Origin: Deltaproteobacteria bacterium
Lineage (GTDB): Bacteria; DRYD01
NCBI GenBank assembly: GCA_028276365.1
Contig: JAPYWL010000003.1
Coordinates: 4,272 to 68,271 of the forward strand
DNA: 64,000 nt
Direction of reading: 5' to 3'
Shown here: piece by piece, positions 2,935 to 47,557 of the stretch
Numbering within the stretch: position 1 is the first letter of the stretch
Layout: every line of letters begins with the position of its first letter
Program-made: the position numbers and the translations under genes
Notes under the pieces: model-generated
Databases searched by the model: none
What the model saw: the letters and a program-made list of their open reading frames with translations, nothing else
Told to the model about the DNA's origin: nothing

Positions 2935-4251
2935 TTAAGAAAAACTAGATCTATGTTGCATCTCTTGAATTATTTCTTCATAAATCTTTTCTTTATTTTT
3001 TCTTCGTAGATCTCTCTTAGAAGGATAATCAAGATTAACTTTAGAATTATTACCTTCCCAAAGTAAAGCAGCAACTCCATCTAACTGATCCTTCATTTCC
3101 TGACAATATGGACAAGTTCTATAATCATGCGGAGAATCAGAATGCTTAGGTTCAGGATACATAAATATTTTACCTTCATAATTCCTTAAAATTACTCTAC
3201 TATCAGACATAGAAATAACATAATTAGGCATAACAGGAATCTTACCCCCCCCACCAGGAGCATCCACTACAAAATAAGGATTAGCTAATCCCGAAGTATG
3301 ACCTCTTAAAAACTCCATTATTTCTATTCCTTTAGAAACCCTAGTTCTAAAATGCTCTAAGCCCTCAGTTAAATCACATTGATAGATATAGTAAGGCCTA
3401 CATCTATTTTTTAATAATAATTGAAATAATTTTTTCATAACAAATGGACAATCATTAACACCTCTTAATAAAACAGTCTGATTCCCCAAAACTACTCCCG
3501 CATCAGCTAGCATATTTAAAGCTCTAGAGGAATATTTAGTTATCTCTTTAGGATGATTAAAGTGAGTATTTAAATAAATAGGATGATATTTTTTAAGAAT
3601 ATTAACTAATTTTTCCGTAATTCTCATAGGATTAGTTACAGGCATCCTAGAACCTAATCTTATAATTTCTACATGCTCAATAGATCTTAAACCTTGTAAA
3701 ATTTTTTCAATTTTCTCATCACTTAAAGAAAGTGAATCCCCTCCCGAAACAACTATATCCCTTATTTCTTTATGTTTTTTTATATATTCCAACCCCATTT
3801 CTATTTGAGACCAAGGTGTAGGTCTATAACTTACCATTCTACTCCTTGTACAATGCCTACAATAAACAGAACATCTATCAGTAACTAAAAATAATACTCT
3901 ATCAGGATATCTATGAACTACTCCAGGAACAGGCATATCTACATCTTCTGCTAAAGGATCTTCCAAATCAAATGTAGACTTCTCTAATTCATAAATAATA
4001 GGAACTGCTTGTCTTCTTATAGGATCGTTAATATCATTAGGATCCATTAGTAATGCATAATACGGTGTAATTCCCATTGTAAAAATTTCACCTAATCCCT
4101 CTTTAATAGCTCTTTCTTCTTCATTAGTAACATTAATTATTTTTTTAAGCTTTTCTAAAGTAGTTATTCTATTTTGAGTTTGCCAATGAAAATCTTCAAA
4201 TTGCTCTTGAGTAACATCTTTCCACATTTCTATTTCTGTCCAATGTCTCAT
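2935..4251 (-). CDS. kamA: Lysine 2,3-aminomutase (KamA-family radical SAM enzyme)
   Basis: Radical-SAM motif CSVYCRHCTRS, the PGGGGKIP motif typical of the KamA family, and a length of 438 aa. Confidence 0.85.
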   Translation of the reverse strand: MRHWTEIEMWKDVTQEQFEDFHWQTQNRITTLEKLKKIINVTNEEERAIKEGLGEIFTMGITPYYALLMDPNDINDPIRRQAVPIIYELEKSTFDLEDPLAEDVDMPVPGVVHRYPDRVLFLVTDRCSVYCRHCTRSRMVSYRPTPWSQIEMGLEYIKKHKEIRDIVVSGGDSLSLSDEKIEKILQGLRSIEHVEIIRLGSRMPVTNPMRITEKLVNILKKYHPIYLNTHFNHPKEITKYSSRALNMLADAGVVLGNQTVLLRGVNDCPFVMKKLFQLLLKNRCRPYYIYQCDLTEGLEHFRTRVSKGIEIMEFLRGHTSGLANPYFVVDAPGGGGKIPVMPNYVISMSDSRVILRNYEGKIFMYPEPKHSDSPHDYRTCPYCQEMKDQLDGVAALLWEGNNSKVNLDYPSKRDLRRKNKEKIYEEIIQEMQHRSSFS

Positions 4252-9741: not shown

Positions 9742-10294
9742 CTAACTTTGGTTAGATTCTAAATTATCAGACATACGGAAAAAAGCAACCAAAGCTATTA
9801 CCCATCCAATAATAGCTAAAATCCCAAATAAAATACTTCCTCCTAATACCCCTAATCCAGCATATTTAAATAAATTATCATTAGTATATTCATAAAATAT
9901 ATCTAAGTATTTTTTAGAGAAAAAACCGGACAAAATAAAACTTAACCATAAAACAAATAAACCTACAAAAAACATAACCCCAAAAGCAGATTTTGCTCCA
10001 AATGAATGACCCCCGATAAAAATAGAAGCAATAGAACTAGCAGATAATATAACAAATAAAATCACACCAATAATAACAATTATAAAACTATAGATAAAAT
10101 TTTTAAATATATCTCCATTATTTAATTTCTTAGAAAAATTAAAAATCCCAATTATATATGCTACAGCCCCCCCCCAACGAAATAATAGCCCCAATTAAGG
10201 GTATAAAACCTCCCACCATAGACCCTAATAACCCAAAAGCACATAACTTCTTTTCTAAACTAATATCAACAACTTCTTGTAATTTGTTATCCAT
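9742..10294 (-). pseudogene. Multi-TM membrane protein gene interrupted by a frameshift in a G9 homopolymer (possibly DUF996-like)
   Basis: The ATG at 10294 is preceded by AAAGGAGGT. The reading frame stops at 10139 after a poly-G tract (plus-strand C9 at 10167-10175). The downstream 150-aa ORF (9742-10194) continues in the -1 frame, with only a TTG and no SD. Confidence 0.65.
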
Positions 10295-39225: not shown

Positions 39226-40188
39226 TTAAACTTTATTTTTGTAAAAATTAGCTATAATCTGTTTAGCAATAATATAAGCATTATAAGCAGCACCCCTTAA
39301 TAGGTTATCACTAACACTCCAAAATCCTAACAAATTACTTTCTAATTTCCTTATTCTAGCTATATGAACTTCATTAGTGTTAGAAACATTATAAGGAACA
39401 GGTAAATTAGAATTATTTAGCCAAATCTTAAGAGCTTTTGTAATATCCCCAAATTCAATTAACTCATCAATTAATTTATTATAATTAAAATCTCTTTTAG
39501 TTTTAACATAAACCACTTGACTATGAGCTCTAATAACGGGAACCCTAACAGTAAAAGGGAAAACCTTAAAATTAGAGTTAAGTATCTTATTAGATTCAAG
39601 AATAATCTTTTTCTCTTCAGTACAAATAATATTTTCTAAGTTAGAATCATCAAAAGATCCTATAACAGGAAACAAATTATAAGCTATAGGATAAGGTAAA
39701 TTTTTAGCAGTAAAATCGTTATTTTTAATTTGATACTTAAATTCTTCTAAAGCTTTTTTACCTGCCCCAGAAACAGATTGATAAGTAGCAACATAAACCT
39801 CTTCTATACCATAGTTATCTAAAATAGGCTTTAGTGGAATAACAAGCTGTATAGTAGAACAATTAGGATTAGCTATTACCTTTTTATCAGGCTTTATTTT
39901 ATTTAAATATTGATTATCTAACTCGGGTACAACTAAATTAACATCAGGATCTAATCTAAAAAAAGAACTATTATCAATAACAAAGGTATCAGCATATATT
40001 TTAGGAGCTATATATGCACTAACTTCATTATCAACACATAAAAAAACTATATCCTGACTCCTTAATTTATCAAAATCAATATTATCATTAGAACCTATAG
40101 GGTAAATTTCCCAATCTTCATTATTTTGAATTAATTTAGCTAATTCACTACCAACTAACCCATTTATTCCTACTATAGATACTCTCAT
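39226..40188 (-). CDS. asd: Aspartate-semialdehyde dehydrogenase
   Basis: MRVSIVGINGLVGSEL, NPNCSTIQL (active-site Cys) and SVSGAGKKA. Confidence 0.9.
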   Translation of the reverse strand: MRVSIVGINGLVGSELAKLIQNNEDWEIYPIGSNDNIDFDKLRSQDIVFLCVDNEVSAYIAPKIYADTFVIDNSSFFRLDPDVNLVVPELDNQYLNKIKPDKKVIANPNCSTIQLVIPLKPILDNYGIEEVYVATYQSVSGAGKKALEEFKYQIKNNDFTAKNLPYPIAYNLFPVIGSFDDSNLENIICTEEKKIILESNKILNSNFKVFPFTVRVPVIRAHSQVVYVKTKRDFNYNKLIDELIEFGDITKALKIWLNNSNLPVPYNVSNTNEVHIARIRKLESNLLGFWSVSDNLLRGAAYNAYIIAKQIIANFYKNKV

Positions 40189-40200
40189 AAAAAATAATAA

Positions 40201-40265
40201 GCTGGAGTATTTGTATTCCGCCCTACTTCAAAAATTTTAATATTTTAAACTACCCAGCAGGCGGT
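40201..40265 (-). promoter_or_regulatory. GC-rich pseudoknot-type structured element, copy 1 (with 28-nt insertion), between murG and asd
   Basis: The minus strand reads ACCGCC-T-GCTGGGTA-[28 nt AT-rich]-GGCGG-AATACAAA-TACTCCAGC, followed by TTATTATTTTTT and the ATG. It shares its core with the elements at 46171 and 47519. Confidence 0.5.
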
Positions 40266-40303: not shown

Positions 40304-41527
40304 TCAATTTATTATATTAGTATTTGCTTTAATATAAGATTTACCTTTATTATAGATTAGTTCCTCAAATTTTTTAAAATCAAAACTGAAATCTTTATTA
40401 ATATTATTATTTTTATTTATTTTATTTATATTTTCTTTGATTTTTGAGATAAATAGATTAAAATCAATTTCTTTATTTTTTTCCTCTTTAATAACATCAA
40501 TATTAGGATTATATTTAGAAACAGTTATTGCATTATAATATTGATGATCATCAGCTGCATAAGGATAAGGTATCAATATAGCATTTTTATTTAAGTATAA
40601 TATTTCAGTAGTAGCAATTCCCCCTGCCCTACTTATTACTATATCACTACTTAAATAAAAATCTATTATCTCATTAACATATTCCAAAATAATTATTTCA
40701 ATATCATTATTACCGTATTTTACCTTAAAAATCATTTTATTATTATCCAAAAACTTATCATGATTTAAATTCCTTTTATTATTTGGTACTAATTTAATTA
40801 GATCATTTTTTACATCATTAAAATTTTTCTTTCCACAAATTATAGATATTTTTTTTATACTTTGTAATTCATTACTAAACTCATTATTATTGGATAATAA
40901 AAAATCAATAAATTTAATTGCTAAATTACTAATAGATTTAGCTCCTAAACTACCACCTATAAAAAGTAAATTAATCCCCCCCTTATCTAAATTACTAGTA
41001 TTACTATCTATTAAATAAAACTCTTTTCTTAATGGATTAGGAAAAATATAACATTTATTATGATAAATTTTATTAATATAATTTAAAGACTCTTTAAAAG
41101 GGAGTATAATAATATCAGCAATATTAGCTAACAATTTATTAGCCTTACCTACTAAAACATTTTGTTCCATAATAATTAATTTTTTATTTTTTAACTTAGC
41201 AGCAAAACCCGCAGGAATGCTATTAGAACTACCTAAAGTTATTACTACATCTATTGATAATTTATCTATCAAATTAGCTATAAATAAAACATCACTAAAA
41301 AACACTGAAATATTACTAAAGAAATTTTTTAAATAAAAATGATAAAACGGTTTTATATAAAAAGAAGTTACATTATATTTAGCTTCTAATTCAGAAACTT
41401 GAGAAACATTAACAGAATTAATAGGTAAAATCAAAAAGTACTTATTATTATTAAGATTTTGGATAATAGAATAAGCAGGATAAAAGTGTCCCCCTGTACT
41501 TCCAGCACTAAATAAAATATTTCTCAT
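40304..41527 (-). CDS. murG: MurG-like glycosyltransferase (UDP-GlcNAc:lipid I transferase family) with C-terminal extension
   Basis: FSAGSTGGHFYPAYSI N-terminal motif, GGSLGA, and RAGGIATTEI. Confidence 0.7.
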   Translation of the reverse strand: MRNILFSAGSTGGHFYPAYSIIQNLNNNKYFLILPINSVNVSQVSELEAKYNVTSFYIKPFYHFYLKNFFSNISVFFSDVLFIANLIDKLSIDVVITLGSSNSIPAGFAAKLKNKKLIIMEQNVLVGKANKLLANIADIIILPFKESLNYINKIYHNKCYIFPNPLRKEFYLIDSNTSNLDKGGINLLFIGGSLGAKSISNLAIKFIDFLLSNNNEFSNELQSIKKISIICGKKNFNDVKNDLIKLVPNNKRNLNHDKFLDNNKMIFKVKYGNNDIEIIILEYVNEIIDFYLSSDIVISRAGGIATTEILYLNKNAILIPYPYAADDHQYYNAITVSKYNPNIDVIKEEKNKEIDFNLFISKIKENINKINKNNNINKDFSFDFKKFEELIYNKGKSYIKANTNIIN

Positions 41528-41544
41528 TTATACCAAAAACTTTC

Positions 41545-42606
41545 TTAATATTCTATTATATATTTTCCTAATTTTATCAATAAATCCTTTTTCACCTGAT
41601 TTAAATTTAGTTTTCCTTCATTATTATTCATTAACTTTTCATTAGTAATTTGTATATTAATTTTATAAAAACCATCTAAAAAATAAGTATAAAAAAGCAA
41701 AGCATTACTATCAAAAACATAATAATTCAAAATAGGATCATATAAAAAATTAGATAAATCTATATCTTCTAAATTCAATTTTTCCTTTGAAATAGAAATT
41801 TTTATTTCTAATTTAAAATTATCTTTATAATCTTTAAAATTATCTTTATAATCATCTTCTGATTCATTTTTTTGTATATCATTTTTGTATAGAATATCTT
41901 GAGTTTTAATTAAATTTATAATGATTTCATTATCATCAATTTTAACTATCTTAATTGAATAATATGATAATAAATCTTGATTATATTTTTCCTGTTTTAG
42001 ATTTGATAATATCAATTCCTTTAATTGTATATTTTGGATATTTTTTAGCTTACTTTTGTAAAACTTATTAAATAAGTATAATATTTTTTCATTACCTTTA
42101 GATAAATCAATAGGAGATAAATTAGAAATATTAGTAATATAAGGAGAAGCCCCCTTTGATAGTAAATAATTAGTAATAATTAAGTTCTGGTTCATAACTG
42201 AATAATGTAAAGGAGTATTACCAAAAATATCCTTAGCGTTTATATCATAAAAATTTAATAATATCTTTAAAGCAGAAAAATTATTTAATTTACAAGCCCA
42301 ATGCAAAGGTGTTAAATTATTATCATCTTTTAAATTTAGTGAAATAAAATAATTACTCATAAATTTTAGAACATCTATTTTATTATACATTATAGCCCAA
42401 ATAACTGGATTATATCCATTATAATCTTTTCTTACTAAAATAAAGTTATCTTCTTCTAAAATTTTTCTAATACCTTTTATATCATTTTTTATTATTAATT
42501 CTTTAAAATTTTTTAAATATTCATCCTCATAATATCCAAAAGCAAAGCCACTAAACATTATTATTAAAAAGCAATAAAACAAAAATAAAGTTAATTTTTT
42601 AAACAT
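41545..42606 (-). CDS. Secreted ankyrin-repeat protein
   Basis: Signal-peptide-like N-terminus and at least 3 ANK repeats (TPLHWACKLNN..., GNTPLHYSVMNQN...). Confidence 0.75.
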   Translation of the reverse strand: MFKKLTLFLFYCFLIIMFSGFAFGYYEDEYLKNFKELIIKNDIKGIRKILEEDNFILVRKDYNGYNPVIWAIMYNKIDVLKFMSNYFISLNLKDDNNLTPLHWACKLNNFSALKILLNFYDINAKDIFGNTPLHYSVMNQNLIITNYLLSKGASPYITNISNLSPIDLSKGNEKILYLFNKFYKSKLKNIQNIQLKELILSNLKQEKYNQDLLSYYSIKIVKIDDNEIIINLIKTQDILYKNDIQKNESEDDYKDNFKDYKDNFKLEIKISISKEKLNLEDIDLSNFLYDPILNYYVFDSNALLFYTYFLDGFYKINIQITNEKLMNNNEGKLNLNQVKKDLLIKLGKYIIEY

Positions 42607-45810: not shown

Positions 45811-46152
45811 TTAAGTAGTAACCTCTACCATCCACTTAAGATAATCTAAATTACCTGCTTTAATATCAATTACAATTATCTCAGGAACAGTATAAGAATG
45901 ATATTTTTTAATAGTTTCTTCTAACTCTTCTAATTTTTCTTCAGTAGTTTTTATAATCAATAGAGCTTCTTCCTGAATTTCTACATTACCCTTCCAAGTA
46001 AATATAGATTTTAAATTATTAATAATATTAACACAAGCAGCAAGTCTATTATTAATTAATATCCTTGCGATATTTTCAGCTTCTATAATATTTGGGCAGG
46101 TTACAAATAAAACTTTAAAAGGAGAATTTTGTAAATTATCTAATTTCTTCAT
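45811..46152 (-). CDS. cutA: Divalent-cation tolerance protein CutA
   Basis: RLAACVNII...SIFTWKGNVE...LIIKT...HSYTVPEIIVIDI...YLKWM. Confidence 0.9.
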   Translation of the reverse strand: MKKLDNLQNSPFKVLFVTCPNIIEAENIARILINNRLAACVNIINNLKSIFTWKGNVEIQEEALLIIKTTEEKLEELEETIKKYHSYTVPEIIVIDIKAGNLDYLKWMVEVTT

Positions 46153-46170
46153 AATAAAAATATAAAATAA

Positions 46171-46207
46171 GCTGGGATATTTATATTCCGCCTACCCAGC
46201 AAGCGGT
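46171..46207 (-). promoter_or_regulatory. GC-rich pseudoknot-type structured element, copy 2 (minimal form), in the cutA leader
   Basis: The minus strand reads ACCGCT-T-GCTGGGTA-GGCGG-AATATAAA-TATCCCAGC, followed by an 18-nt T-rich tract and the ATG. Confidence 0.6.
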
Positions 46208-46780: not shown

Positions 46781-47500
46781 TTAATGTTTATGAAGTGGAT
46801 TCAATTGATGATCTACAAAATGTTTAATAAACTCAGCATATTTGTTTTCAGGTAAAGCTCCTTCTATATCATCTTCAAATACTTTTTGATCTTTTGTTAT
46901 TAGCTTTAAAACAGTTTTAGGAACACCCATTATATTATATTTAATAGCATAATCTTGAAATTCAGAAACTTCCACATTAATAGCTTTAATATTATCACTA
47001 ACAACCGAAAAAGCAGTGGAATTAATAGTCATAATAGGACAATATGGACAAGTAGGAGTAACAAATACCCATAATTCTAAAACTGCCCCATTACTCTTTA
47101 ACATATTATCTATTTCTTTTACAGTATTTATAGTTTTTTCACTTATAGGTAGTTGATCATTAGCTACCATAAGAATAGAATTTAATAACCAAGTGAACTC
47201 ATAACCAGCAGGAATCCCCAAAAACTTAAAATTATAATCCTTATTTGATCTTAATATTATAGCCGGTACTTCCTTTGAAATACCATACTTATTAGCTAAC
47301 TCCACATCAACTAAAGGATTATATAAAACTAATTTTAAATTATCTAAGATTTCAGTTAATTCTTTCAGTAATTGTTCCGTATCAGGACAATACTCACAAC
47401 CTATTTTTTGGGAAAATAATAGCACTTCAGTTAGTTTTGCTAAACTTCCTACTTGTCTTTTTATTTCCTGTCTATCTTGTTCAGTAATAAACATATTCAT
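46781..47500 (-). CDS. Protein disulfide oxidoreductase with two thioredoxin-fold units (glutaredoxin-like PDO type)
   Basis: Two CxxC sites (CEYC and CPYC) in two repeated Trx-like halves. 239 aa. Strong AAAGGAGGGA SD. Confidence 0.75.
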   Translation of the reverse strand: MNMFITEQDRQEIKRQVGSLAKLTEVLLFSQKIGCEYCPDTEQLLKELTEILDNLKLVLYNPLVDVELANKYGISKEVPAIILRSNKDYNFKFLGIPAGYEFTWLLNSILMVANDQLPISEKTINTVKEIDNMLKSNGAVLELWVFVTPTCPYCPIMTINSTAFSVVSDNIKAINVEVSEFQDYAIKYNIMGVPKTVLKLITKDQKVFEDDIEGALPENKYAEFIKHFVDHQLNPLHKH

Positions 47501-47518: not shown

Positions 47519-47557
47519 GCTGTAATCATTTATATTCCGCTATTACAGCTTAGCGGT
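47519..47557 (-). promoter_or_regulatory. GC-rich pseudoknot-type structured element, copy 3, between fabH and the PDO gene
   Basis: The minus strand reads ACCGCT-AA-GCTGTAAT-AGCGG-AATATAAATG-ATTACAGC, followed by ATTACTAGAAAGGAGGGA and the ATG. Confidence 0.55.

What the first reader, a model, noticed from the sequence alone, without database searches (positions are those of the whole stretch)
40201..40265. Pseudoknot-motif copy with a 28-nt AT-rich insertion, placed between murG and an SD-less asd start
- This copy has the same core as the elements at 46171 and 47519, but P1 (CCGCC/GGCGG) encloses an extra 28-nt AT-rich segment (GTTTAAAATATTAAAATTTTTGAAGTAG). That segment could form its own weak hairpin, a variable-insertion site typical of structured RNAs.
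- P2 here needs a G.U pair and a one-nt bulge (GCTGGGTA vs TACTCCAGC).
- The 3' arm of P2 is followed by TTATTATTTTTT and then directly by the asd ATG, with no Shine-Dalgarno sequence. The same is true of copy 2 and cutA. Almost every other gene in the window has a strong AAGGAGG-type SD.
- The element therefore either acts as an intrinsic terminator or attenuator for the cutA-to-murG string, or substitutes for an SD in asd expression.
Basis: partly seen in the sequence, partly recalled or inferred. Interest (0 to 1): 0.7.

Follow-up and report, generated by a model that had tools for sequence, protein, structure and literature searches.

The report
Orphaned transposon guide-RNA pseudoknot relic
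The element upstream of asd is a shrunken leftover of the guide-RNA scaffold of an IS607/TnpB transposon that once inserted at the gene's ribosome-binding site. Selection has kept its pseudoknot core at about ten gene junctions in this hot-spring bacterium, so it probably now serves as a small structured RNA. It is not a terminator, and nothing shows that it replaces a Shine-Dalgarno sequence.

Summary
Window 40201-40264 (- strand) is CCGCC-U-GCUGGGUA-[28 nt]-GGCGG-AAUACAAA-UACUCCAGC. It shares its core with copies at 46171-46206 and 47519-47556, where chance predicts none.

A public-genome scan shows the same core inside the 3' end of an IS607-type transposon (serine TnpA plus a 480-590-aa TnpB). 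This transposon is multi-copy in thermophilic Firmicutes and Aquificota, with copies also in MAGs labelled Thermodesulfobacteriaceae, Deltaproteobacteria and Acidilobaceae. That position is where TnpB guide RNA (omega/reRNA) scaffolds lie. These transposons insert between a Shine-Dalgarno sequence and the start codon, which explains why each copy sits just upstream of an ATG.

The 28-nt "insertion" is the vestige of a scaffold segment that pairs with upstream sequence in intact modules. In the asd copies it no longer pairs and is not conserved. A third species still has the scaffold's terminal hairpin at the same murG-asd spacer.

The core is under strong purifying selection. All its G/C positions survive in three species, whereas G/C at 4-fold sites almost never does. 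P2 covaries among paralogues.

The terminator reading fails: the T-tract is not conserved. The SD-substitute reading is unproven, and about half of the window's genes lack an SD anyway. The present function is inferred: most likely a cis-acting intercistronic RNA fold.

The parts
40201..40264 (-). Copy 1: orphan pseudoknot core with a vestigial 28-nt L2 segment, in the murG-asd spacer
   Evidence: Sequence. A covariance model built only from transposon-linked modules of other phyla hits it at E = 2e-6. Orthologous copies are in L003, L044 and L138.
40260..40264 (-). P1/S1 5' arm, CCGCC
   Evidence: Invariant in the window, L003, L044 and L138 (A2).
40251..40258 (-). P2/S2 5' arm, GCUGGGUA
   Evidence: The GCUG base is invariant. 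The upper part covaries among copies.
40223..40250 (-). 28-nt AT-rich segment: vestige of the scaffold's L2 (3' strand of stem a plus linker)
   Evidence: Orthologues carry unrelated segments of 30 nt (L003) and 22 nt (L044). Pairing to upstream sequence is no better than shuffles. In intact modules the own-versus-cross duplex energy is -17.1 versus -6.4 kcal/mol.
40218..40222 (-). P1/S1 3' arm, GGCGG
   Evidence: Invariant across the three species.
40210..40217 (-). A-rich L3, AAUACAAA
   Evidence: AAUAYAAAU is invariant in all copies and in all transposon modules.
40201..40209 (-). P2/S2 3' arm, UACUCCAGC (one G.U pair, 1-nt bulge)
46171..46206 (-). Copy 2: mini pseudoknot (no L2 segment), in the spacer upstream of cutA
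   Evidence: Model R1 hit at E = 2e-7. Orthologues are in L098, L135, L138, L172 and L182.
47519..47556 (-). Copy 3: mini pseudoknot upstream of a thioredoxin-like ORF, followed by a real SD
   Evidence: Orthologues are in L098, L114, L135, L182, L186 and L203.
39226..40188 (-). asd (aspartate-semialdehyde dehydrogenase), downstream gene of copy 1
   Evidence: Pfam PF01118 and PF02774. The start MRVSIVGINGLVG matches homologues.
40304..41527 (-). murG-like glycosyltransferase (GT28), upstream co-oriented gene
   Evidence: Pfam PF03033 and PF04101.
45811..46152 (-). cutA, downstream gene of copy 2
   Evidence: Pfam PF03091.
46781..47500 (-). Thioredoxin-like ORF, downstream gene of copy 3
   Evidence: Pfam PF13192 and PF00085.

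Best explanation
The element is an orphan, miniaturised derivative of the guide-RNA scaffold (omega/reRNA) at the right end of an IS607-type transposon (serine-recombinase TnpA plus TnpB).

Origin (shown or strongly inferred):
- Transposons of this family insert at a GG inside a Shine-Dalgarno sequence, between the SD and the start codon and co-oriented with the gene. Their right end therefore lies a few nucleotides upstream of an ATG.
- In an ancestor of this very AT-rich lineage, which is related to Calescibacterium, such an element, or a ~115-bp protein-less derivative of it, landed in front of asd.
- The transposase and TnpB genes, stem a and the terminal hairpin have since decayed. The 28-nt 'insertion' is what remains of the L2 segment.

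Selection (shown):
- The nested core survives. It consists of P1 CCGCC/GGCGG, P2 GCUG../..CAGC and the A-rich AAUAYAAAU strand.
- It is kept by purifying selection here and at about nine other intercistronic spacers between co-oriented genes.

Present role (inferred, not shown):
- The core is transcribed within the operon mRNA and folds into a compact H-type pseudoknot that works in cis.
- The most likely role is a position-tolerant barrier that protects or delimits mRNA segments against exonucleases or processing.
- It is not an intrinsic terminator and is not required as an SD replacement.
For: Link to the transposon:
- A genome scan with the core pattern returned multi-copy elements, often at contig ends. 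They are in thermophilic Firmicutes and Aquificota, and in MAGs labelled Thermodesulfobacteriaceae, Deltaproteobacteria, Acidilobaceae and 'bacterium GBS-1'.
- In these the core lies just downstream of, or overlaps, a TnpB gene. TIGR01765 and TIGR01766 pass their cut-offs. tblastn finds TnpB upstream of the motif in 11 loci.
- In L014 an IS607-family TnpA is adjacent (NF033518, 132 bits).
- Copy-to-copy identity ends sharply at ...ACCAGG.

Insertion site:
- L014 flanks read AGGAGG|IS|atatcattATG. L025 flanks read AGGCGG|IS|tgagagaTTG (rho).
- L049 shows matching GG junctions, and L082 and one L048 copy are read the same way.

Intact module:
- Stem a covaries: own versus cross duplex energy is -17.1 versus -6.4 kcal/mol, p < 5e-5. 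The terminal hairpin has a mean z-score of -4.3.

Homology to the window:
- A model built only from those modules gives window copies 2, 1 and 3 as its three best hits (E = 2e-7, 2e-6 and 1.4).
- The L044 orthologue of the murG-asd spacer keeps the terminal hairpin and the UUUAC tail.

Selection:
- All 16-17 G/C core positions are identical in the window, L003 and L044.
- G/C at 4-fold sites of asd is retained in only 1/7, 1/7 and 0/10 cases, and GC at 4-fold sites is 8%.
- P2 covaries among 8 non-orthologous copies (p = 0.00025).
- P2 arm sequences are locus-specific across species, which shows inheritance rather than re-insertion.

Context:
- The 8 spacers checked lie between co-oriented ORFs. 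The motif starts 14-74 nt after the upstream stop and ends 12-26 nt before the ATG in most. The ninth locus, the Trm112-like variant in L019, was not resolved.
- The downstream genes are unrelated housekeeping genes: asd, cutA, trx-like, acpP, rpmF, recA, asnS, jag and Trm112-like.
Against: - No TnpB, TnpA or transposon end is present in the window or in 356 kb of related AT-rich DNA. The link to the transposon therefore rests on sequence and structure similarity and on the L044 intermediate.
- The relatives were retrieved with a pattern taken from the window motif, so identity at those 21 positions is partly by construction. The independent parts are the P2 3' arm, the AAAUA lead-in, the terminal hairpin in L044 and the coherent TnpB linkage.
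- How at least 8 loci came to share the same minimal boundaries is not explained. Either a mobile mini-variant existed or selection trimmed each copy.
- The proposed present-day role has no direct evidence: there are no transcript ends and no expression data.
- The invariant nucleotides are the same ones that are invariant in TnpB-linked scaffolds. This would fit continued protein recognition equally well.
Confidence: 0.65

Rival explanations
1. It is still a working protein-binding scaffold. A TnpB, or a nuclease-dead TnpB-like regulator (TldR-type), encoded elsewhere in the genome binds the mini pseudoknot. The protein would either occlude the adjacent start region or use the 3' flank as a guide.
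For: - The nucleotides invariant in the minis (CCGC/GCGG, GCUG/CAGC, AAUAYAAAU) are exactly those invariant in TnpB-linked modules across phyla.
- Published omega RNA descriptions place a nexus hairpin that pairs with the scaffold's 3' end next to the guide.
- Protein-less elements that encode omega RNAs acted on in trans are described in the literature (PMC10055086).
Against: - No TnpB-like gene was found in the window or in 356 kb of lineage DNA.
- None of the 120 best TnpB homologues is recognisably from this lineage.
- The minis lack stem a and the guide-proximal hairpin, both strongly conserved in intact modules.
- Selfish maintenance by TnpB selects against loss of the whole element, not against point mutations in each scaffold.
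Confidence: 0.15
2. It replaces the Shine-Dalgarno sequence. The pseudoknot recruits or positions the 30S subunit for the SD-less asd and cutA starts.
For: - 8 of 9 distinct motif-linked genes lack an SD, against about half of all ORFs in the window. One-sided binomial p is about 0.02.
- The motif ends 12-26 nt before the ATG in most copies.
Against: - Both features follow from the parent transposon inserting between the SD and the ATG.
- SD-less genes without the motif are common, for example murG, 43038 and 48620.
- Spacing to the ATG is not constrained: 37 nt in the L044 asd copy and at least 45 nt in the L098 trx copy.
- The trx copy keeps a full AAGGAGG downstream.
Confidence: 0.12
3. It is an intrinsic terminator or attenuator for the upstream gene string. 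P2 is the hairpin and the U-run is the release signal.
For: Copies 1 and 2 are followed by U-rich tails. Viral contig L227 has a similar knot followed by eight U.
Against: - The terminator scan calls nothing at copies 1 or 2 on the - strand. The total of 2 calls in the region is within chance.
- U-richness is the genome background (77% AT).
- The tail is not conserved in the asd orthologues or in copy 3, acpP, rpmF and asnS.
- The P2 loop is 13-41 nt and the downstream genes are essential operon members.
Confidence: 0.06
4. It is a neutral, decaying transposon scar with no function.
For: - The L2 segment, stem a and the terminal hairpin have decayed.
- P2 of the asd copies is the weakest in the family, at 4-6 Watson-Crick pairs.
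Against: - All core G/C positions are retained across three species, while neutral G/C sites turn over almost completely.
- Compensatory P2 variation is seen among paralogues.
- At least 9 loci are conserved across several species.
Confidence: 0.08
5. It is a small-molecule riboswitch of the H-type pseudoknot kind, such as preQ1 or SAM-II.
For: The topology matches: an H-type pseudoknot with an A-rich third strand, next to start codons.
Against: - No Rfam match appears at gathering score or at E <= 10.
- The downstream genes have no common pathway.
- The same core sits inside transposon guide RNAs.
Confidence: 0.02

Closest known systems
Omega/reRNA guide-RNA scaffolds of IS607-family TnpB nucleases (for example the RAGATH-18-derived reRNA of ISFba1, PMC11061315; IStron omega RNAs, bioRxiv 10.1101/2023.11.20.567912)
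   Same: - The relatives of this motif lie at the right end of elements with a serine TnpA and a TnpB.
- The scaffold is pseudoknotted and ends at a GG transposon boundary.
- The insertion and target motif is SD-like: AGGAGG here, and a 5'-AGGAG TAM reported for ISFba1. A GG core dinucleotide is also reported.
   Different: - No RAGATH-18 or any other Rfam match.
- The associated TnpB is 480-590 aa and carries TIGR01765, against an average of 390 aa (330-433) for ISFba1-type TnpBs.
- The window copies have no TnpB, no transposon ends, no stem a and no terminal hairpin.
Protein-less non-autonomous IS200/IS605 derivatives (PATE-like) that still encode omega RNA (PMC10055086)
   Same: These are short elements that lack genes but keep the guide-RNA part. 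The ~115-bp solo modules in Aquificota and GBS-1 (L082, L048, L049) fit this description.
   Different: - The solo modules are IS607-type (GG junctions), not Y1-transposase elements with hairpin ends.
- The window copies are only 36-64 nt and have no recognisable ends, so they are not mobile units.
TldR guide RNAs (domesticated, nuclease-dead TnpB transcription factors; PMC10705468)
   Same: This is a precedent for transposon guide-RNA parts taken over for host gene control.
   Different: TldR guide RNAs are full scaffolds encoded next to the tldR gene, with a guide to a distant promoter. No such gene or guide is seen here.
REP/BIME-type intercistronic stabiliser elements of enterobacteria
   Same: These are repeated, structured elements between co-transcribed genes. 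They have a mobile-element-related origin and act as barriers to mRNA decay. This comparison rests on my own knowledge of the family, not on a tool result.
   Different: - REPs are simple imperfect palindromes, not pseudoknots.
- They are linked to a different transposase family (RAYT).
- The barrier function here is only inferred.
H-type pseudoknot riboswitches (preQ1-I/II, SAM-II)
   Same: The topology and size match, with an A-rich strand and a position near the start codon.
   Different: There is no sequence or model match, and the downstream genes are unrelated.

Membership tests
TnpB omega/reRNA scaffold (IS607-type, thermophile clade) | Sequence and structure match to the scaffold core | tested here: met
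   Model R1 was built from 26 modules of other phyla. Window copies 2, 1 and 3 are its three best hits (E = 2e-7, 2e-6 and 1.4). Caveat: the training loci were retrieved with a pattern taken from the window motif.
TnpB omega/reRNA scaffold (IS607-type, thermophile clade) | Lies at the 3' end of, or just downstream of, a tnpB gene inside a transposon right end | tested here: not met
   No TnpB or TnpA homologue in the window. The flanking genes are murG and asd. The feature is met in L012, L014, L025, L034, L078, L093 and L104.
TnpB omega/reRNA scaffold (IS607-type, thermophile clade) | Complete scaffold: stem a, pseudoknot core, terminal hairpin, and an end at ..CCAGG followed by a guide | tested here: not met
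   Only the core is present. Stem a pairing is no better than shuffles. There is no terminal hairpin and no GG end. The L044 orthologue keeps the hairpin.
TnpB omega/reRNA scaffold (IS607-type, thermophile clade) | A cognate TnpB in the same genome binds it and uses the 3' flank as a guide | not testable with these tools
   Only about 356 kb of redundant lineage DNA was available, with no TnpB hit.
RAGATH-18-derived reRNA (Rfam) | Match to the Rfam covariance model | tested here: not met
   No hit in the window or in 12 transposon loci at gathering score. No hit at E <= 10 in the window region or in L025:5000-5520.
Non-autonomous mini-IS607 (PATE/MITE-like) | Both element ends are present, with the GG crossover dinucleotide at each junction | tested here: not met
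   No GG junctions flank copies 1 or 2. Copy 3 has AAAAGG|..|AGG, but its orthologues do not. L049 shows matching GG junctions, and L082 and L048 are read the same way.
Intrinsic (Rho-independent) terminator | GC-rich hairpin with a short loop, followed directly by a conserved U-tract | tested here: not met
   No call at copies 1 or 2. The P2 loop is 13-41 nt. The U-tract is absent in orthologues and in most paralogues.
Riboswitch | Match to a known aptamer class, and downstream genes in one pathway | tested here: not met
   Rfam gives no match. The downstream genes are asd, cutA, trx-like, acpP, rpmF, recA, asnS and jag.
H-type RNA pseudoknot (structural class) | Two helices, each supported by covariation, with the 5' arm of helix 2 in the loop of helix 1 | tested here: met
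   P2: own-versus-cross test p = 0.00025. P1: the fifth pair occurs as C-G and U-A in the bacterial copies and as G-C and A-U in the phage contigs; the other four pairs never vary. The structure has not been probed experimentally.

The most novel reading that the evidence does not exclude
A family of roughly 38-nt pseudoknots, derived from the core of a transposon's guide-RNA scaffold, has been domesticated by a hot-spring lineage related to Calescibacterium. It now serves as a host cis-element at about ten operon junctions, ahead of asd, recA, acpP, rpmF, asnS, cutA and others. It would act either as an RNA-decay or processing barrier, or as a docking site for a TnpB-derived protein. This would be a case of guide-RNA exaptation without the nuclease gene alongside.
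Probability: 0.4. Interest if true: 0.75.

Novelty: new variant of a known kind. Interest (0 to 1): 0.58.

Why it matters
TnpB guide RNAs are known as parts of selfish transposons, as precursors of Cas12 guide RNAs and, in TldR systems, as domesticated regulators together with their protein.

Here only the pseudoknot core of such a scaffold survives, with no nuclease gene in the DNA examined. It is held by strong selection in front of housekeeping genes in a 23% GC thermophile. If the core works for the host, RNA parts of OMEGA systems can be exapted on their own.

The finding also gives a naturally minimised, presumably thermostable version of the fold, which could guide scaffold engineering.

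Separately, the data suggest that this IS607 clade inserts precisely between a Shine-Dalgarno sequence and the start codon, and brings a surrogate AGG with it. That is a low-cost insertion strategy worth testing.

Tried and rejected
- Rfam at gathering score and at E <= 10, on the window and on transposon loci, gave nothing relevant.
- Single-sequence folding of the three copies and of the inserts gave z-scores near zero. This is uninformative for short pseudoknots.
- The promoter scan found as many sites as in shuffles, so it is useless in 77% AT DNA.
  - An internal sigma-70 promoter (UUGCUG ... UAUAAA) was considered and rejected. The spacer is only 11 nt, and a promoter would not explain P2 covariation.
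- A leaderless-mRNA reading (-10-like boxes just upstream of the ATGs) was considered. It cannot be separated from the AT-rich background.
- A DNA-level protein operator was rejected because the arms covary instead of being conserved.
- An antisense-strand RNA was rejected because several pairs are G.U only on the sense strand.
- The strict structural scan of the window found only copy 3, because copies 1 and 2 have a bulge. It was replaced by anchor searches.
- MAFFT alignment of the minis (A1) and of the modules (A5) did not keep the helices in register. Covariation was therefore tested by own-versus-cross duplex energies instead of the count of structure pairs.
- The search for a TnpB from the AT-rich lineage was inconclusive.
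  - The profile search returned 1986 hits. The top 120 are, where named, from Aquificota, thermophilic Firmicutes, Caldisericum and similar thermophiles.
  - tblastn on all lineage DNA in hand gave nothing.
- The asd leaders of the more distant Calescibacterium MAGs (L005, L006) lack the motif. L005 has a normal AAGGAGG SD.
Full report
**1. What is in the window**

The window is 23.4% G+C. Nearly all its genes, including all those around the finding, are on the - strand.

On that strand, 40264..40201 reads CCGCC-U-GCUGGGUA-[GUUUAAAAUAUUAAAAUUUUUGAAGUAG]-GGCGG-AAUACAAA-UACUCCAGC. It is followed by UUAUUAUUUUUU and the asd ATG at 40188.

- P1 is 5 bp.
- The same core without the 28-nt segment lies at 46171-46206, 18 nt before the cutA ATG.
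- A third copy lies at 47519-47556, followed by AAGGAGGG and the ATG of a thioredoxin-like ORF.
- GCGGAATAYAAAT and the whole gapped pattern each occur three times, all on the - strand. No match appeared in 100 dinucleotide-preserving shuffles.
- No further copy was found by a GCGGAA anchor, by a listing of GC-rich islands, or by the covariance model.

One supporting claim is wrong. By a simple test, about 30 of 61 ORFs in the window have no SD-like 4-6-mer at -18..-4. These include murG and most neighbours of the motif copies. A missing SD in front of asd and cutA is therefore not exceptional in this genome.

**2. Organism and orthologous copies**

- The closest named Asd homologues (65-70% identity) are from Candidatus Calescibacterium MAGs. 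Unnamed MAG and metagenome proteins reach 86-98%.
- L003 encodes an Asd that is 87% identical. Its murG-asd spacer has the same core, but an unrelated 30-nt AT-rich segment at the same place and no T-tract (ACTATTAAAAAACT before the ATG).
- A third species, L044, has CCGCC-U-GCUG-[22 nt]-GGCGG-AAUAUAAAUA-CGCAGC. This is followed by an extra hairpin, UCAGGGUAU-UAAU-UAUACCUUGA, and UUUACUAAUUAAAU-AUG.
- The alignment of these spacers is invariant only at A-CCGCCUGCUG, GGCGGAAUA.AAAUA and CAG. The inner segment and the flanks do not align (A2).
- More distant Calescibacterium MAGs (L005, L006) have a different upstream gene and no motif. L005 has an ordinary AAGGAGG SD.

**3. Where else the core occurs**

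Rfam has no family for the motif.

Apart from scattered hits in GC-rich genomes that have no P2 complement, there are two coherent classes.

- **Class A, long modules.**
  - They are multi-copy in Fervidicola, Thermovorax, Thermovenabulum, Tepidanaerobacteraceae and many Aquificota.
  - Copies also occur in a Thermodesulfobacteriaceae MAG, 'bacterium GBS-1', a Deltaproteobacteria MAG and an Acidilobaceae archaeon MAG. They often lie at contig ends.
- **Class B, the mini form.** It occurs in very AT-rich MAGs (CAKZQG01, JBMFOW01 and others), each copy shortly upstream of an ATG.

**4. Class A is the right end of an IS607-type TnpB transposon**

- Copies within and between the Firmicutes genomes align for more than 300 nt upstream of the core. 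They stop aligning abruptly at ...GAUGACCAGG.
- The ORF upstream is a TnpB of about 490 aa. TIGR01765 scores 88 bits and TIGR01766 65 bits, both above their cut-offs. guided_TnpB scores below its cut-off.
- tblastn finds this TnpB upstream of the motif in 11 loci.
- In L014 an IS607-family serine transposase precedes it (NF033518, 132 bits against a cut-off of 110).
- A profile of five TnpBs finds 1986 homologues. The best are, where named, from thermophiles.

The core therefore sits where TnpB guide RNAs (omega/reRNA) are encoded. Published work describes these scaffolds as pseudoknotted. A 'nexus' hairpin pairs with the scaffold's 3' end, and for IS607 the boundary is a GG dinucleotide (bioRxiv 10.1101/2023.11.20.567912; PMC11061315). 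This clade is not the RAGATH-18 type, since Rfam gives no hit.

The intact 3' module has this order: stem a 5' strand, AAAUA, P1 5' arm, P2 5' arm, stem a 3' strand plus linker, P1 3' arm, AAUAYAAAUA, P2 3' arm, terminal hairpin, ..ACCAGG.

- Stem a covaries strongly. The own-versus-cross duplex energy is -17.1 versus -6.4 kcal/mol, and none of 20,000 permutations reached the observed value.
- The terminal hairpin has a mean z-score of -4.3.

**5. Why the copies sit next to start codons**

The flanks of two elements reconstruct their targets.

- L014: tatttAGGAGG | IS | atatcattATG.
- L025: aaAGGCGG | IS | tgagagaTTG, where TTG is the rho start.

The element therefore goes in between an SD and the start codon. 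It is co-oriented with the gene, and its own end (CCAGG) leaves an AGG at SD distance. In 10 of 12 Firmicutes copies a start codon follows the right end within about 10 nt. ISFba1, another IS607 TnpB, is reported to use a 5'-AGGAG TAM.

Aquificota and GBS-1 also hold ~115-bp protein-less solo modules, consisting of stem a, the core and the terminal hairpin. L049 shows the same GATGAGG at both junctions, and the L082 and L048 junctions are read the same way. These are the IS607 counterpart of PATE-like elements that encode only the guide RNA (PMC10055086).

**6. Reading the finding**

The known forms make a reduction series.

1. Full IS.
2. The ~115-bp solo module.
3. The L044 asd copy, with stem a lost and the terminal hairpin kept.
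4. The window and L003 asd copies, with only the core plus a 28-30-nt unconstrained L2 remnant.
5. The 36-38-nt minis.

In the asd copies, pairing between the remnant and the upstream sequence is no better than shuffles. The remnant's own hairpin is negligible.

A covariance model built only from class-A and solo modules of other phyla returns window copies 2, 1 and 3 as its three best hits (E = 2e-7, 2e-6 and 1.4). There is one caveat. Those modules were retrieved with a pattern derived from the window, so the 21 pattern positions are shared by construction. The P2 3' arm, the AAUA lead-in and the L044 hairpin are independent of the pattern.

**7. The core is selected, not just left over**

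A metagenome scan for minis, together with anchor searches, gives at least nine distinct loci in this lineage.

- The downstream genes are asd, cutA, trx-like, acpP, rpmF, recA, asnS, jag and a Trm112-like ORF.
- Several loci are present in three to five species.
- P2 sequences are locus-specific. The trx copies all carry GCUGUAAUA, and the jag copies carry GCUGGUUA. The copies are therefore inherited, not re-inserted.
- Among eight non-orthologous copies, each 5' arm pairs better with its own 3' arm than with the others (-11.6 versus -8.4 kcal/mol; permutation p = 0.00025).
- The fifth P1 pair occurs as C-G, U-A, G-C and A-U across the versions.
- G.U pairs occur on the sense strand, with no A.C at the well-paired anchored positions, so the gene-sense RNA is the folded strand.
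- Four-fold degenerate sites of asd are 8% G+C. A G or C at such a site in one species is retained in another in 1/7, 1/7 and 0/10 cases. All 16-17 G/C positions of the asd core are identical in three species.

**8. What it does now (inference)**

- The eight loci whose spacers were checked lie in 62-137-nt spacers between co-oriented ORFs. The motif starts 14-74 nt after the upstream stop. In most copies it ends 12-26 nt before the ATG. It is therefore almost certainly transcribed inside operon mRNAs.
- It is not a terminator. The scan makes no call at copies 1 or 2, and the U-tract is not conserved.
- It is not a riboswitch. No model matches, and the regulated genes are unrelated.
- The SD-substitute idea cannot be excluded.
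  - In its favour, 8 of 9 linked genes lack an SD, against about half of all ORFs.
  - Against it, this depletion and the proximity to the ATG both follow from the insertion mechanism.
  - The spacing to the ATG ranges from 12 to about 50 nt among orthologues.
  - The trx copy keeps a full SD.
- A position-tolerant cis role fits best. The likeliest is a compact, stable knot that protects or delimits mRNA segments against exonucleases or processing. I hold that at roughly 0.3.
- The main alternative is continued recognition by a TnpB-family protein, at about 0.15. The invariant nucleotides are the same as in TnpB-linked scaffolds, but no such gene was found in 356 kb of lineage DNA.
- It remains unexplained how at least eight loci reached the same minimal boundaries.

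**9. Verdict**

The functional parts (terminator, SD substitute) are not supported.
- The 'insertion' is a vestige of the parent scaffold rather than an added domain.
- The element is a new variant of a known kind: an orphan, selected derivative of a TnpB guide-RNA scaffold.

Noticed in passing
L014:760-2950 (- strand); L025:3740-5490: This IS607-type TnpA/TnpB family inserts exactly between a Shine-Dalgarno sequence and the start codon. The reconstructed targets are AGGAGG|atatcattATG, and AGGCGG|tgagagaTTG in front of rho. Its right end ..CCAGG leaves a surrogate AGG at SD distance.
   Followed up: partly
L082:100-215; L048:1536-1645 and 3067-3175; L049:6918-7022: Protein-less solo modules of about 115 bp (stem a, pseudoknot core, terminal hairpin), with GG junctions, sit directly upstream of host ATGs in Aquificota and 'bacterium GBS-1'. 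They look like non-autonomous mini-IS607 elements that carry only the guide-RNA part.
   Followed up: partly
L129:718-760, L145:748-790, L170:10582-10624, L184:6883-6925 (= IMG/VR UViG_3300028805_000039, 239 kb): Contigs with large tRNA arrays, one of which (L170) includes a suppressor tRNA(tta), carry a mini pseudoknot with the same P1, L3 and P2 layout. One of these contigs is listed in IMG/VR. The motif lies about 5-15 nt upstream of tRNA-Glu(ttc), and the fifth P1 pair covaries (A-U or G-C). Its relation to the TnpB scaffold is unknown.
   Followed up: partly
L227:2159-2215: A viral contig (31% GC) has CCGCAG-CUGGACCUA-CUGCGG-AAUAUAAAUUAA-UAGGUC followed by a run of eight U. The topology is the same, but here the tail is terminator-like.
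   Followed up: no
L019:4150-4240: A variant upstream of a Trm112-like ORF has GCGGAAUAUAAAU and a P2 (AGCUAAG/CUUGGCU) but no CCGC 5' arm. Two tandem AGUACCUUUAAGGUACU-type hairpins take its place.
   Followed up: no
window 1-64000: About half of the 61 ORFs have no recognisable SD at -18..-4, while others have a perfect AAGGAGG. There is no Rfam hit of any kind in the 64 kb, not even a tRNA.
   Followed up: partly
window 3241-3261 and 10160-10180: Homopolymer C8-C9 tracts (G tracts on the coding strand) lie inside ORFs of a 23% GC genome. They could be slippage-prone sites.
   Followed up: no
L034:1275-2930, L078:275-1465, and proteins P0121-P0146: In Aquificota the TnpB reading frame, as called, runs through the pseudoknot core (C-termini ...KAEYKYPSPKC). 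In Firmicutes it stops about 50 nt before the core. The guide-RNA core overlaps coding sequence in one clade only.
   Followed up: no
window 41545-42606: An ankyrin-repeat protein of 353 aa is encoded between a YdjM-like membrane protein and murG.
   Followed up: no
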